IMG/VR virus record: IMGVR_UViG_2531839668_000011
Coordinates: 1 to 43,678 of that record
Origin: a virus
Lineage: Duplodnaviria > Heunggongvirae > Uroviricota > Caudoviricetes
DNA length: 43,678 bases
Direction: 5' to 3' (one strand)
The position numbers were made by a program. Shown one piece after another: positions 36,001 through 39,000 of this stretch. Positions within the stretch are counted from its first letter, which is position 1. Each line of letters begins with the position of its first letter.

Positions 36001-39000
36001 AATAATATTGATATAACACTAAATGTTGTTGATTTATAATTGTCGATTTAGCAAAACAGAGAATGCTTTGAAAGTTTCACCGAGAAATATTTATTGTGAA
36101 CCTCCTTATTGTTTATCGACTTTTACTCTCCGCTCATTGCAGTACTGTCGGAGAAGGCTACTATGTACAAGAAGCAGCTAACATAAGCGAGCATCACTAT
36201 TGATATTAGGAAGAGTATATAAAAACTTCATGCTGAACCTTACAAAAGTAGGTAAACCGGCAATGGCCTAAGTGGCAGGGTCATGTTGATCCGGCACTGC
36301 CGAGCTAATAATTAACAAGCAAATCACTCTTTCTAATAATTTGTTGAAATAAACTAAATATGTATATGTTTACCAACAACCACATATGAACTACCTGCTT
36401 TGCTCCATGATTTTATTATTTCTAAATTATTATCTGAGCATATTTTACTTACAGTATCCACATCTAATAAACCATAGTAGAAAGCATTGCGAGAGTTTTG
36501 GTATATATACCCATGCAAATGTTTAATACCGCTCTCGTACCTCTTGAAATAAGAACTTTTGTATTGATTGACAATCAGTGCTTCACCATCACTCTTTAAT
36601 AATTCTCTAATCGCACTGAGGACTTTGTGAATTGTGGATTCACATGGAATTGCGGAAAGCACGTTTGCGCAAAGTATGAAATCATAATGATTTGTTATTT
36701 TATCTATATTTTCATAAGAAACAATATTAGCATTCTTATAGTTATTTATCACGTAATCTGGAATCGTGGTTTGTACACCTCTGATAATTTGCACTCTTTC
36801 TAGTTGTCTTCTGGAATCTAAAAATGTCACAGTTTCAAATTTATTTACTAATTGTTCTGAATATCTAAGTTTTCCACATCCAAAATCAAGGGCATTGCCA
36901 TTTTTATTAGTGCTTTCAATCTGTTTACAGAGATAGTTAGATGGCATAGTGTGCGGTTTCGCTGCATTTTCTGAACGTATGTTTATTCCATTTATTTTGT
37001 AATTCAAAATCAACCTCGTTTAAAAAATATTGTTATTGTTAAAGAATTCTTTTATTTTGCTATCAGGTATTTGTCTTACTTGGCTTTCTGTTCTTGGTTT
37101 AACTGATGCTATGAAAATAAGGAAGTCAAATGCGACAAGAGAAATAATCCACAACCAAAGATTAATTAAAGAGCCAGTAACAGAGAATATATTTGTTAAT
37201 TTGGCGATACTTATTATTAAAATAGTAACAAATGCGATTACTGTATGTTCAAAGAAAACCCAAAAGTAATAAACTTTGTTCCAGAAAAGTTCAACGTAAT
37301 GTTTGTCTTTTAACTCTTTAACTTCTGGGTAATACAGTTTACTCATTACCTTGTGAGATTCATCAGTAGTTAATTTTCTCGTAACGCCTGCAATTTTTGC
37401 TAATGGTTTAATAATTAAATGACTATCCCACATCTTCCTTATTCCAATAATTTTTGCTACATTATTATGTAGATCTAAAGCTCCACTAATTACTGACCAA
37501 AAAACTGAAGATGCAATTGGTAATATGCCAAAGGTTAATATCCATTTAATAAATTCCTCGTAGTCTTTAACGGGGGGGATATACTTGGCATTAATGCCAA
37601 CCAATGGCATGTAGCCATAAATGACTAATGATAGGTAAAATATAAATGTAGTAATAAAAGTCGCCTTATGGAGCATAGGCAACATTTCATTATAACTCTT
37701 TGGTGGTTCTAACATTTTACTCTCCAAACACTCAAAAAAAAGCTAATCTTCTATAATAACGAAATTCAGCTGGCACAATTAAAGATTAATTGCCACCAAT
37801 TTCTTGATTTTATAATTTTATCTAAATGTTTTTGATTAATCTAGTCCTAAAAGAAACCTACTGCATAAATATTTATGCTGATGACCCACTCCCTGTTCGT
37901 TAACACATAGCAACGTTAGTAATGCATCCTAAGTGATCAATATTTTTGCTAGCTTCATCTGCTCGCTCAAAGGGAACTATAATGTTGGCTTGCGTGTGAC
38001 TTGGCATGTTTAAAGAAGTGCTGGTGGTGACTGGTTGCTGTTTTCCATTTCCACAGAACAAAATCATAGAAACTATACCCAGTAGTTGTATTGAATCACT
38101 GACGAGACAGCCTCATATTTATCAGGACTGGTGTACGTCCAATACAGGAGGTTGTGGTGCTGGTTCTCAAATGTGCGCTGGCTATTGCTGCTGTAATGGC
38201 AATTTATTGTCTTGCTGTTGTTCTTATGGATCACCTTTCTGATTGATTTCATATTGGCGAGGTAACGGTAGTTAAGTAGAATTGCTGCGGGTGCTTGAGG
38301 CTATCTGCCTCGGGCATCAACACCAAAGGCAGATAGAGAAAAGCCCCAGTTAACATTACGCGTCCGGCAAGACGCTTAACATTAATCTGAGGCCATATCT
38401 ATGCTCTACACACGTAGGTTAGCCTCTTACGTGCCGAAAGGCAAGGAGAAGCAGGCTATGAAGCAGCAAAAGGCGATGTTAATCGCCCTGATCGTCATCT
38501 GTTTAACCGTCATAGTGACGGCACTGGTAACGAGGAAAGACCTCTGCGAGGTACGAATCCGAACCGGCCAGACGGAGGTCGCTGTCTTCACAGCTTACGA
38601 ACCTGAGGAGTAAGAGACCCGGCGGGGGAGTAATCTCCCGCCACCTCTGATGTGCCAGGCATCCTCAACGCACCCGCACTTAACCCGCTTCGGCGGGTTT
38701 TTGCATTAGTCTGGTTGACAAAAATAGAAAAATGCGAAAATATGTGGTTTACGAATTCTAAAAAAAGCGAAACTTGAAATGAATGAAAATCAGTTAGCTC
38801 CTTGTTGGGAATTTCAACCTTATCTTGCTGAAAACTATGTTCGCCACTTGTTGGCGGAGATCGCTAACGTACTTGAGCAGCTGTACTATCATAAGCACGC
38901 ATTAGACAGCAACTGGTCTGAAGGTGTAAGGGCTTATGATTGGGTCAGAAATCATCTTATTCAAAATGAAGATGCAATTCCTGGCCTTGAGATGATTTCC

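What the first reader, a model, noticed from the sequence alone, without database searches (positions are those of the whole stretch)
36354..37727. AT-rich two-gene operon: polytopic membrane protein plus class I SAM methyltransferase
The two minus-strand genes are separated by 7 nt and lie in DNA that is visibly far more AT-rich than the flanking prophage backbone, pointing to recent acquisition. The methyltransferase has the SAM-binding motif I but none of the DNA N6-adenine motifs, so its substrate is unclear (small molecule, lipid, RNA or protein). A membrane partner plus methyltransferase is not a standard described phage module that I recognise.
Basis: partly seen in the sequence, partly recalled or inferred. 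Interest (0 to 1): 0.65.

Follow-up and report, generated by a model that had tools for sequence, protein, structure and literature searches.

The report
Prophage ymfED membrane–methyltransferase cargo pair
The two genes are a diverged copy of the uncharacterised E. coli K-12 e14 prophage pair ymfE–ymfD, a membrane protein and a non-DNA methyltransferase that stay together from E. coli to Clostridium and sit in prophage cargo slots and anti-phage defence islands, so they are probably an unrecognised phage-defence module.

Summary
Two co-directional minus-strand genes, 12 nt apart by the best-supported starts, lie in the lowest-GC 3.4 kb of the window. They are not orphans. They are 60% and 68% identical to K-12 e14 YmfE and YmfD, an annotated transcription unit with no function in the literature I could read.

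New here:
- **Linkage.** Of 108 loci found from the methyltransferase alone, 100 have a YmfE-family gene adjacent on the same strand. The arrangements are E>D, D>E, or E-x-D with a third conserved gene. Hosts range from 25% to 66% GC, Clostridium included, and the two proteins co-evolve (r=0.74).
- **YmfD** is an intact class I SAM enzyme with no DNA-methyltransferase motif IV. Its nearest folds are Trm9 and small-molecule methyltransferases.
- **YmfE** is a 4-TM protein, predicted N-in/C-in, with no Pfam family and no structural relative. One relative is fused to TIR.
- **Context.** The pair occupies a swappable slot between the DUF977 gene and hok/sok. Elsewhere it sits beside Lit, at P2-like prophage ends, in a Vibrio integron-like cassette array, and directly downstream of Hachiman, Lamassu, Olokun and Gabija.

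Best reading (about 0.5): a mobile anti-phage or conflict module with a membrane partner and a SAM-dependent enzyme. The biochemistry is unknown, and no defence phenotype has been shown.

The parts
37020..37715 (-). ymfE-like gene, 231 aa. A 4-TM inner-membrane protein predicted N-in/C-in, with a conserved cytoplasmic N-terminal motif (PPKSYNEML), a ~65-aa cytoplasmic central helical domain and a cytoplasmic tail.
   Evidence: 60% identical over its full length to K-12 YmfE. The ATG at 37715 follows GGAGAG. Hydropathy and K/R counts support the topology. AF2 gives pLDDT 87 and pTM 0.81. It has no Pfam, PADLOC or NCBIfam family. No PDB or BFVD fold relative was found.
36354..37007 (-). ymfD-like gene, 217 aa. 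A single-domain class I SAM-dependent methyltransferase with an intact SAM site and no DNA-methyltransferase motif IV.
   Evidence: 68% identical to K-12 YmfD. PF08242 and PF13489 score above their cut-offs. AF2 gives pLDDT 88. Foldseek's best hits are Trm9, DnrK, MfnG, NNMT and NodS at 10-17% identity. Motif I and post-I residues are at least 95% conserved over 33 clusters. 0 of 34 members carry [DNS]PP[YFWH].
37008..37019 (-). 12-nt intergenic spacer carrying the methyltransferase ribosome-binding site (GAGG). The arrangement looks like an operon.
   Evidence: Read directly from the sequence. The K-12 pair is listed as the transcription unit ymfED (PMC6469107).
37716..37950 (-). AT-rich leader and upstream region of ymfE. 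The promoter was not identified.
   Evidence: Sequence read. No consensus sigma-70 site on the minus strand and no terminator were found. GC is 0.29-0.34.
35140..36039 (+). SMEK-domain gene, 299 aa, with a predicted nuclease-type N-terminal domain. It is convergent with ymfD. It is co-inherited with the pair in one enterobacterial clade but absent from most of the family.
   Evidence: PF21941 at 2e-22, NF033859 at 1e-30 and PADLOC Aga_REase at 1.4e-20. SMEK is listed among the nuclease domains of short-pAgo-associated APAZ proteins in PMC10810196. The conserved geometry and parallel divergence are shown.
34867..38269 (.). Variable cargo slot (AT-rich island) of the lambdoid prophage, between the DUF977 gene and hok/sok.
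   Evidence: The flanks are 94% and 96.5% identical to a second lambdoid early region in the same window, whose slot (4162-5781) holds unrelated ORFs. Other E. coli carry a RelA/SpoT-domain gene, a 340-aa hypothetical or small ORFs there.
34465..34887 (+). DUF977 gene, the left conserved flank of the slot (end of the replication module).
   Evidence: Annotation of the identical locus. It is found in 4,067 of 5,426 E. coli genomes.
38289..38613 (+). sok RNA and hok toxin gene, the right conserved flank of the slot.
   Evidence: Rfam sok at 114 bits. The 70-aa ORF at 38401-38613 corresponds to the gene annotated hokD in the identical locus.

Best explanation
This is prophage cargo: a ymfED-type two-gene module that most likely works in conflict with other phages or mobile elements, either by anti-phage defence or by exclusion.

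**Shown here**
- YmfE-like is a 4-TM membrane protein. Its conserved parts (N-terminal motif, central helical domain, C-terminal tail) are predicted to face the cytoplasm, and its outward loops are only 16 and 10 residues long.
- YmfD-like is a compact SAM methyltransferase with an intact SAM-binding site and no DNA-methyltransferase features.
- The two genes are almost never found apart, they co-evolve, and they move as a cassette between unrelated elements.

**Inferred**
- YmfD works at the cytoplasmic face of the membrane together with YmfE.
- YmfE acts as the membrane-embedded sensor or anchor, and the enzyme is the output that methylates a non-DNA target (small molecule, lipid, RNA or protein).
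- A relative of YmfE carries a TIR domain in the place of the methyltransferase, which suggests swappable enzymatic outputs on one membrane module.
- By analogy with the K-12 allele, the pair is probably expressed from the lysogen independently of prophage induction. Being AT-rich, it is probably subject to H-NS silencing.

The opposite division of labour, with the enzyme as sensor and the membrane protein as a RexB-like effector, is not excluded.
For: **Homology.** The window proteins are homologs of K-12 YmfE and YmfD.

**Linkage.** 100 of 108 loci retrieved through YmfD alone have an adjacent co-directional YmfE-family gene. Seven have flanks too short to judge, and one is rearranged exactly at the methyltransferase start. 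By cluster at 70% identity there are 24 E>D, 6 D>E, 6 E-x-D and one frameshift artefact. The mirror-tree correlation is r=0.74, reached by 0 of 2000 permutations. The Clostridium perfringens pair has YmfD at 38% identity (E=5e-38), and the membrane profiles match at 99.9% probability.

**Immunity-type fusion.** P0321 is a YmfE-like module with a C-terminal TIR domain.

**Defence neighbours.**
- Lit in e14 and in L037.
- Hachiman in L023.
- Gabija plus SIR2 in L016.
- Lamassu in L053 and Olokun in L021.
- A Tse2 ADP-ribosyltransferase, SUFU and an integrase in L021.
- A SMEK nuclease-domain gene in this window.

**Mobile settings.**
- A swappable lambdoid slot that holds a RelA/SpoT-domain gene in another strain.
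- P2-like prophage ends after ogr.
- A Vibrio cholerae cassette array among ParDE toxin-antitoxin genes.

**Composition.** The pair is AT-richer than its flanks in 31 of 31 loci.

**Expression of the K-12 allele.** It is not SOS-induced, unlike ymfJ and ymfM (PMC11002266). It is listed with a positive Crl effect (PMC6469107).

**Catalytic site.** The SAM-binding residues are conserved in at least 95% of clusters.
Against: - No experiment shows protection against any phage.
- The K-12 ymfD knockout and a ymfD point mutation have no growth phenotype, but these were not phage assays (PMC12096079; PMC6828540).
- Neither protein matches a PADLOC v2 model beyond a weak generic methyltransferase hit.
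- Complete known defence systems flank only about 5 of 28 non-redundant loci. The binomial P is 0.012 if the background is 5% and 0.14 if it is 10%. Those background rates come from my memory, not from a measurement.
- Many neighbours are ordinary housekeeping genes.
- The TIR fusion is a single lineage.
- The pair was not found in 50,697 isolated phage genomes.
- No physical interaction, substrate or topology has been measured.
Confidence: 0.5

Rival explanations
1. A membrane or small-molecule modification module with no immune role. YmfD methylates a lipid, a quinone, an envelope precursor or a toxic compound that YmfE presents or transports. The benefit to the lysogen would be lysogenic conversion or stress tolerance, as in TehAB-type detoxification.
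For: The closest folds are small-molecule O- and N-methyltransferases and TehB-like families. The pair combines a membrane partner with a soluble methyltransferase. The K-12 allele is listed with a positive Crl effect, that is sigma-S-linked. Prophage att-end positions are also typical of conversion genes.
Against: TehB equivalog scores are 28-29 bits against cut-offs of 218-303, and YmfE has no TehA or transporter family hit. The outward loops are tiny and no transporter-like fold was found. The pair occurs in both Gram-negative and Gram-positive hosts, which argues against an LPS or outer-envelope target. A metabolic role does not explain the TIR-fused relative or the repeated adjacency to Hachiman, Lamassu, Olokun, Gabija and Lit.
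Confidence: 0.2
2. A toxin-antitoxin-like addiction module. YmfE is a membrane toxin held in check by YmfD, or the reverse, and the pair stabilises the prophages, integron cassettes and islands that carry it.
For: In Vibrio cholerae it sits in a cassette array among ParDE and Phd toxin-antitoxin pairs. In this window it sits next to hok/sok. The two genes are tightly linked and often overlap.
Against: Both proteins, at about 220-230 aa, are large for classic type II pairs. Deleting ymfD alone is tolerated in K-12 with ymfE intact (Keio strain, PMC12096079), although H-NS silencing could mask any toxicity. The invariant catalytic site implies that enzymatic turnover is needed, not just binding. 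This rival overlaps with abortive-infection defence rather than excluding it.
Confidence: 0.12
3. A nucleic-acid methyltransferase acting on DNA or RNA, used by the prophage for self-marking, anti-restriction or translational control, with YmfE as an unrelated neighbour.
For: The top structural hit is the tRNA methyltransferase Trm9. ymfD was shortlisted as a possible m6A RNA methyltransferase, and its knockout lowered the number of m6A peaks, as did the other three knockouts tested (PMC12096079).
Against: 0 of 34 members have [DNS]PP[YFWH], and a 217-aa single domain has no room for a target-recognition domain. [quoted passage not shown] Near-universal linkage and co-evolution with YmfE rule out an unrelated neighbour.
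Confidence: 0.06

Closest known systems
E. coli K-12 e14 prophage ymfE-ymfD (b1138-b1137), transcription unit ymfED
   Same: The two protein families are the same (60% and 68% identity over full length, no gaps). Gene order, strand relation and AT-richness match. Both are prophage cargo with a defence-type gene next door: Lit in e14 and SMEK here.
   Different: The allele differs (60-68% identity). The prophage backbone and position differ: the lambdoid replication-to-Q slot beside hok/sok here, against the att end of e14. The neighbour also differs. The K-12 pair itself has no established function in the literature I could read.
Kiwa (KwaA membrane protein plus KwaB) and Zorya: membrane-embedded sensor with a cytoplasmic effector. 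Their mechanisms are cited from my own knowledge and were not tested here.
   Same: A small polytopic inner-membrane protein is encoded next to a cytoplasmic partner, and the pair is found in defence islands and prophages. This is the logic I propose for YmfE and YmfD.
   Different: No sequence relationship exists, since no PADLOC model hits YmfE. The partner here is a SAM methyltransferase, which none of those systems uses.
Lambda RexAB: a prophage-encoded cytoplasmic protein plus the 4-TM RexB membrane protein, causing abortive infection by depolarisation. Cited from my own knowledge.
   Same: It is prophage-encoded, has two genes, pairs a 4-TM inner-membrane partner with a soluble partner, and is expressed from the lysogen.
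   Different: No PADLOC model of any kind matched YmfE. I did not confirm that the library holds RexAB models. RexA is not an enzyme of this class. Which partner is the effector here is unknown.
TehA/TehB tellurite-resistance operon (membrane protein plus class I SAM methyltransferase)
   Same: A membrane protein is paired with a TehB-like class I methyltransferase. YmfD passes the Pfam TehB domain cut-off marginally (24.4 bits against 20.4).
   Different: YmfD scores 28-29 bits against NCBIfam TehB equivalog cut-offs of 218-303. YmfE is a 4-TM protein with no family hit, whereas TehA is a roughly 10-TM SLAC1/TDT-type transporter (TehA's topology is cited from my own knowledge).
Methyltransferase-containing defence systems (R-M, BREX, DISARM, MADS)
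   Same: They include a SAM methyltransferase gene and lie in defence islands. YmfD gives a weak hit to the MADS mad2 methyltransferase region (E=1e-4).
   Different: Those enzymes methylate DNA and come with nuclease, ATPase or other partners. YmfD lacks motif IV and a target-recognition domain, and its only constant partner is a small membrane protein.

Membership tests
ymfED pair (K-12 e14 type) | YmfD-family methyltransferase: full-length similarity including the ENAAKP, DFGCGKLRYS, NVLSAIPC and NQxxSSYF motifs | tested here: met
   68% identity over 214 aa with no gaps. The motifs are invariant in the 34-sequence alignment.
ymfED pair (K-12 e14 type) | YmfE-family 4-TM protein: PPKxYNEML N-terminus, LHNN, IRxxWD and DKHYxxLFW motifs | tested here: met
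   60% identity over 232 aa with no gaps. Invariant columns are listed. The sister cluster is named protein YmfE.
ymfED pair (K-12 e14 type) | The two genes are adjacent and co-directional, with the membrane gene first | tested here: met
   Window 37715-37020 is followed by 37007-36354 on the minus strand. K-12 has the same order.
Class I (Rossmann-fold) SAM-dependent methyltransferase | Motif I glycine-rich loop, an acidic post-I residue, and a seven-strand Rossmann-like fold | tested here: met
   PF08242 scores 35 bits against 30, and PF13489 scores 34.2 against 27. AF2 gives pLDDT 88 with alternating strands and helices. 986 PDB methyltransferase-type matches have E<=1e-3. D41, G43, G45, D64 and N115 are conserved in at least 95% of clusters.
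DNA amino-methyltransferase (N6-adenine or N4-cytosine) | Catalytic motif IV, (D/N/S)PP(Y/F/W/H) | tested here: not met
   0 of 34 family members have it.
DNA amino-methyltransferase (N6-adenine or N4-cytosine) | A target-recognition domain | tested here: not met
   The protein is a 217-aa single domain fully accounted for by the Rossmann core plus an N-terminal hairpin. No DNA-methyltransferase Pfam family was hit.
TehAB tellurite resistance | TehB equivalog-level similarity | tested here: not met
   NF008992 scores 29 bits against 303, and NF008405 scores 28 against 218.
TehAB tellurite resistance | A TehA-type multi-pass transporter as partner | tested here: not met
   YmfE has 4 TM segments and no Pfam or NCBIfam hit.
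Known or candidate defence systems in PADLOC-DB v2.0.0 | A match of the component proteins to the system's models | tested here: not met
   YmfE has no hit at E<=1. YmfD has only mad2 at E=1e-4 over the generic methyltransferase core. Newer catalogues could not be searched.
Anti-phage defence system (functional class) | Reduces phage infection when expressed | not testable with these tools
   Only context evidence is available. A preprint that mentions 'ymfE and lit' in an H-NS and antiviral-immunity study could not be read.
Anti-phage defence system (functional class) | Enrichment next to known defence genes and on mobile elements | tested here: inconclusive
   Complete known systems or Lit flank about 5 of 28 non-redundant loci, and integrases or transposases are found in several. 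The background rate was not measured. The binomial P is 0.012 at 5% and 0.14 at 10%.
Type II toxin-antitoxin module | One partner is toxic and is neutralised by the other | not testable with these tools
   The only indirect evidence is that a ymfD knockout is viable in K-12.

The most novel reading that the evidence does not exclude
ymfED is a new kind of anti-phage system. A dedicated 4-TM membrane module, which has no Pfam match and no structural relative in the PDB or BFVD searches run here, controls or is controlled by a non-DNA SAM methyltransferase. Immunity would then be executed or signalled by methylating a small molecule, lipid, RNA or protein, or by sensing SAM, which some phages destroy. 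The same membrane module can instead drive a TIR domain. A copy sits silently in E. coli K-12 next to Lit, so the idea can be tested at once.
Probability: 0.3. Interest if true: 0.8.

Novelty: new member of a known kind. Interest (0 to 1): 0.55.

Why it matters
ymfD and ymfE are among the remaining y-genes of E. coli K-12 with no function. This analysis turns them from two separate annotations ("putative methyltransferase" and "uncharacterised protein") into one conserved, mobile, co-evolving two-gene module. That module reaches Firmicutes and soil bacteria, has three gene-order variants and a TIR-fused relative, and sits in prophage cargo slots and defence islands.

If it is an immune system, it would add a non-DNA methyltransferase to the known set of defence enzymes and define a new membrane partner family. 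It would also explain a recurrent cargo of enterobacterial prophages. The window-type island is in about 2.8% of complete E. coli genomes, and the e14 type is in about 5%.

If it is not immune, the strict pairing still points to an unknown membrane-associated methylation reaction.

Tried and rejected
1. **Fold searches for YmfE.**
   - Foldseek against BFVD gave nothing (best E=1.3).
   - PDB sequence profiles gave nothing significant for either the core or the remote alignment. The weak DARK hits at E=0.13 were dismissed.
   - The afdb50 library was unavailable.
2. **PDB sequence profile for YmfD.** No hit at E<=1e-3.
3. **Genome-contig scan with the YmfE alignment.** The patterns were too specific. 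It gave 5 loci, three of them E. coli-like contigs inside MAGs or assemblies labelled as other taxa, probably contamination.
4. **Apparent E-D fusion ORF in L095 (474 aa).** Rejected as a frameshift. The YmfE part stops at profile position 153 and is followed by non-hydrophobic out-of-frame sequence.
5. **L030, the only locus with a solo methyltransferase.** Rejected as an exception, because homology to the island ends exactly at the methyltransferase start, which indicates a rearrangement.
6. **ER2796 paper as a test of DNA methylation by YmfD.** Uninformative, because that strain has lost e14.
7. **Sequenced phages.** tblastn of YmfE against 50,697 phage genomes gave no match.
8. **Promoter and terminator scan.** No more sites than in shuffled sequence, and none usable upstream of ymfE. 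The repeat search found no island-bounding repeats.
9. **The preprint 10.64898/2026.09.05.749240.** It could not be opened. Only term counts could be obtained.
10. **Literature search by protein accession.** No papers found.
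Full report
**1. The observation**

The two minus-strand ORFs are there, at 36354-37013 and 37020-37727 by longest ORF. Reading the sequence gives better starts. The membrane gene starts at ATG 37715, five bases after GGAGAG, and gives MLEPPKSY..., the N-terminus shared by all homologs. The methyltransferase starts at TTG 37007 after GAGG and gives M-N-Y-K-I, which matches the M-x-Y-K-I starts of distant homologs. These starts equal PGAP's calls in an identical E. coli locus, 231 and 217 aa. The gap is then 12 nt.

The genes have 30.6% and 31.8% GC against 46.3% for the window. 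The surrounding 3.4 kb is the lowest-GC stretch of 806 sliding windows. The AT-rich tract is wider than the finding and also contains a plus-strand gene at 35140-36039.

**2. Identity**

The window comes from E. coli. The 3.5-kb island is at least 99% identical in 146 records, and at least 80% of it is present in 151 of 5,426 complete genomes. It lies in a lambdoid (dicB/dicA/ydaT-type) prophage, between the DUF977 gene and hokD, upstream of DUF968, rusA and Q.

One methyltransferase homolog was named ymfD. Checking K-12 showed the e14 prophage carries ymfD and ymfE adjacent on one strand, with the abortive-infection protease gene lit divergent from them. The window proteins are 68% identical to YmfD and 60% identical to YmfE over full length without gaps. 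Database names for the sister cluster confirm [quoted passage not shown]. So the pair is a second allele of a known, annotated, functionally uncharacterised K-12 pair.

**3. What the literature says about the K-12 allele**

- The pair is listed as one transcription unit, ymfED, among Crl-regulated genes with a positive effect (PMC6469107).
- It is not induced by SOS, unlike the e14 genes ymfJ and ymfM (PMC11002266).
- A ymfD knockout grows normally. The authors concluded that none of the four candidate genes alone is responsible for mRNA m6A (PMC12096079).
- A ymfD point mutation was neutral (PMC6828540).
- ymfE appeared in a table of hits in a c-di-GMP transposon screen (PMC13031359).
- Searching by protein accession found nothing.
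- A 2026 preprint, [quoted passage not shown], mentions ymfE 11 times, lit 18 times and "ymfE and lit" once, but never "methyltransferase". It could not be opened. It may already describe H-NS silencing at this e14 locus. I cannot tell whether ymfE was tested.

**4. The proteins**

*YmfD-like.* It passes the Pfam class I methyltransferase cut-offs. The AF2 model is confident (pLDDT 88). Foldseek finds only generic class I relatives at 10-17% identity and TM about 0.6: the tRNA methyltransferase Trm9 first, then the small-molecule enzymes DnrK, MfnG, NNMT, PhzM, DhpI and NodS. A PDB sequence profile search finds nothing. TehB-type equivalog models score far below their cut-offs. No family member has a DNA amino-methyltransferase motif IV. 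Motif I (D-x-G-C-G-K-L-R-Y), the post-I D-S and the N-V-x-S-x-x-P motif are conserved in at least 95% of 33 clusters. The SAM site is therefore intact. That it is an active enzyme on a non-DNA substrate is an inference.

**5. Family breadth and linkage**

An exhaustive profile search of 1.84 billion representatives found 15 proteins at E<=1e-30 and 221 at E<=1e-3. The tail consists of proteins of about 233 aa that share the signature motifs. Profile-profile comparison of the core and the tail gives 99.9% probability.

I then surveyed from the methyltransferase side. That gave 80 metagenome loci and 28 IMG/VR loci at 29-100% identity. Of these 108:

| Outcome | Loci |
|---|---|
| YmfE-family ORF adjacent on the same strand | 100 |
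| Flanks too short to judge | 7 |
| Lacks it with adequate flanks (L030) | 1 |

L030 loses homology to the island exactly at the methyltransferase start, so it is a rearranged copy.

At 70% identity there are 37 clusters:

| Arrangement | Clusters |
|---|---|
| E>D | 24 |
| D>E | 6 |
| E-x-D, where x is a conserved protein of about 165-175 aa with an HCQRCLRG motif and no Pfam family | 6 |
| Frameshift artefact | 1 |

Gene order changes while the linkage holds, which argues for functional coupling. The pairwise identities of the two proteins are correlated (r=0.74, reached by 0 of 2000 permutations). Named hosts include Enterobacteriaceae, Providencia, Vibrio, Aeromonas, Pseudomonas, Marinobacter, Neptuniibacter, Microbulbifer and Clostridium perfringens. 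An apparent fusion ORF in L095 is a frameshift artefact.

**6. Context**

*This window.* The window contains two lambdoid early regions, with DicF and sok each present twice. Their flanks align at 94% (the DUF977 gene) and 96.5% (hok/sok), but the DNA between them is unrelated. Copy 1 has 1.6 kb of unknown ORFs, and copy 2 has the 3.4-kb island. In other E. coli the same slot holds a RelA/SpoT-domain gene, a 340-aa hypothetical or small ORFs. It is therefore a cargo hotspot.

*Other mobile settings.*
- Next to Lit in e14 and in an e14-like metagenome locus.
- After gpD-ogr at the end of P2-like prophages in Providencia and Enterobacter.
- In other lambdoid backbones with DnaB/ORF6N or DUF968.
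- In a Vibrio cholerae cassette array among ParDE and Phd toxin-antitoxin genes.

*Next to complete known defence systems.* In each case the known system is directly upstream and co-directional.
- Hachiman in Pseudomonas.
- Lamassu in L053.
- Olokun in Microbulbifer, with a Tse2 toxin, SUFU and an integrase nearby. OloB was assigned to the gene adjacent to OloA from the bulk scan, not from a per-protein table.
- Gabija in C. perfringens, with SIR2 on the other side.

*Other context facts.*
- A relative, P0321, has the membrane module fused to a C-terminal TIR domain, where the methyltransferase gene would follow.
- The pair is AT-richer than its flanks in 31 of 31 loci (median -8 GC points, P about 1e-9). 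Low GC is thus a property of the cassette and not a clock.
- YmfE is absent from 50,697 isolated phage genomes and present in 3 plasmids.
- The e14-type allele is in 283 of 5,426 E. coli genomes.

**7. The SMEK neighbour**

The plus-strand gene has an N-terminal SMEK domain. PMC10810196 lists SMEK among the nuclease domains of short-pAgo-associated APAZ proteins, which explains the PADLOC Aga_REase hit. In one enterobacterial clade SMEK is always convergent about 330 nt downstream of ymfD. It diverges in step with the pair, at 83-90% identity against 82-91%. It is absent from the 75-80% alleles, the P2-type and the e14-type. I treat it as a co-travelling neighbour, possibly an independent single-gene defence candidate, and not as a core component.

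**8. Interpretation**

The best-supported reading is a mobile conflict module, anti-phage defence or exclusion, built from a membrane partner and a SAM-dependent enzyme (confidence about 0.5).

I favour YmfE as the membrane-embedded sensor or anchor and the enzyme as the output, because a TIR domain can take the enzyme's place. This resembles the logic of Kiwa or Zorya. The reverse arrangement, as in RexAB, is not excluded. These analogies rest on my own knowledge and were not tested. No sequence relationship exists.

The defence-island association is suggestive but not a proper statistic. About 5 of 28 non-redundant loci qualify, and the background rate was not measured.

Rivals:
- Non-immune membrane or small-molecule modification (0.2).
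- A toxin-antitoxin-like addiction module (0.12).
- Nucleic-acid methylation (0.06).

**9. Novelty and verdict**

The genes are a new allele of a known but uncharacterised pair, so I file this as a new member of a known kind. What appears new is the pair-level picture:
- universal linkage across phyla;
- three architectures;
- the superfamily of the membrane protein and its TIR fusion;
- the hotspot and defence-island contexts.

None of this appears in the libraries or papers I could search. The caveat is one unreadable 2026 preprint.

Interest is 0.55. It is a strong, cheaply testable candidate sitting in K-12 itself, but the evidence is contextual and there are many such candidates.

Noticed in passing
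window 1-12000 and 30984-41307: The window holds two related lambdoid early regions. DicF is at 175-226 and 31158-31209, and sok is at 5801-5976 and 38289-38463. The segments 1-1140 and 30984-32123 are 99% identical. Two related prophages, or a duplicated module, therefore lie about 31 kb apart.
   Followed up: partly
window 4162-5781: The equivalent cargo slot of the first lambdoid copy holds three ORFs (4366-4824 minus strand, 4662-5015 plus, 5026-5679 plus) with no Pfam family, in DNA of about 40% GC. This is another uncharacterised cargo in the same hotspot.
   Followed up: partly
window 38779-40513: Just downstream of hok there is a 216-aa ORF with no family, overlapping a 368-aa protein with HTH_3 plus Peptidase_M78 (ImmA/IrrE-type) domains. 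This pair is absent from the otherwise identical strain C3 locus, so it may be another accessory or regulatory module.
   Followed up: partly
window 35140-36039: The SMEK-domain protein has a C-terminal half of about 180 aa with no family. It is co-inherited with the ymfED-type pair in one enterobacterial clade, always convergent about 330 nt downstream of the methyltransferase.
   Followed up: partly
L063 2083-2579, L066 868-1380, L075 2788-3312, L082 1601-2107 and relatives: A three-gene variant from soil and other metagenomes. A conserved protein of about 165-175 aa with an HCQRCLRG motif and no Pfam family is inserted between the YmfE-like and YmfD-like genes in six clusters.
   Followed up: partly
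L017 5001-6074 (protein P0321): The YmfE-like membrane module, lacking TM1, is fused to a C-terminal TIR domain (residues 224-336). It lies next to an IS21-type transposase pair.
   Followed up: partly
L023 386-5334, L021 2725-7669, L053 827-5650 (approx.), L016 959-6441: In all four loci where a complete known system (Hachiman, Olokun, Lamassu, Gabija) neighbours the pair, that system lies directly upstream on the same strand with a gap of about 175 nt or less. Whether this is island clustering or an accessory relationship is unexplained.
   Followed up: no
L024 5936-6961 (E. coli E166): The same DUF977-hokD slot holds a 341-aa RelA/SpoT-domain protein. From memory, this resembles fused toxSAS defence proteins of the CapRel type.
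   Followed up: no
L093 6062-7909: A 615-aa protein with an adenylate/guanylate cyclase domain plus an RCC1-like repeat region lies just downstream of a distant ymfED-type pair.
   Followed up: no
window 10221-10735: A cluster of three tRNA genes is followed by the sRNA STnc100 (132 bits). In the related C3 prophage locus the Ile/Arg/Arg tRNA genes lie downstream of Q.
   Followed up: no
L007, L008, L009: Contigs carrying E. coli-type ymfE (90-100% identity) are deposited under 'Candidatus Scatousia', 'uncultured Haemophilus' and 'Streptomyces sp.' assemblies. These are probably binning or contamination artefacts.
   Followed up: no
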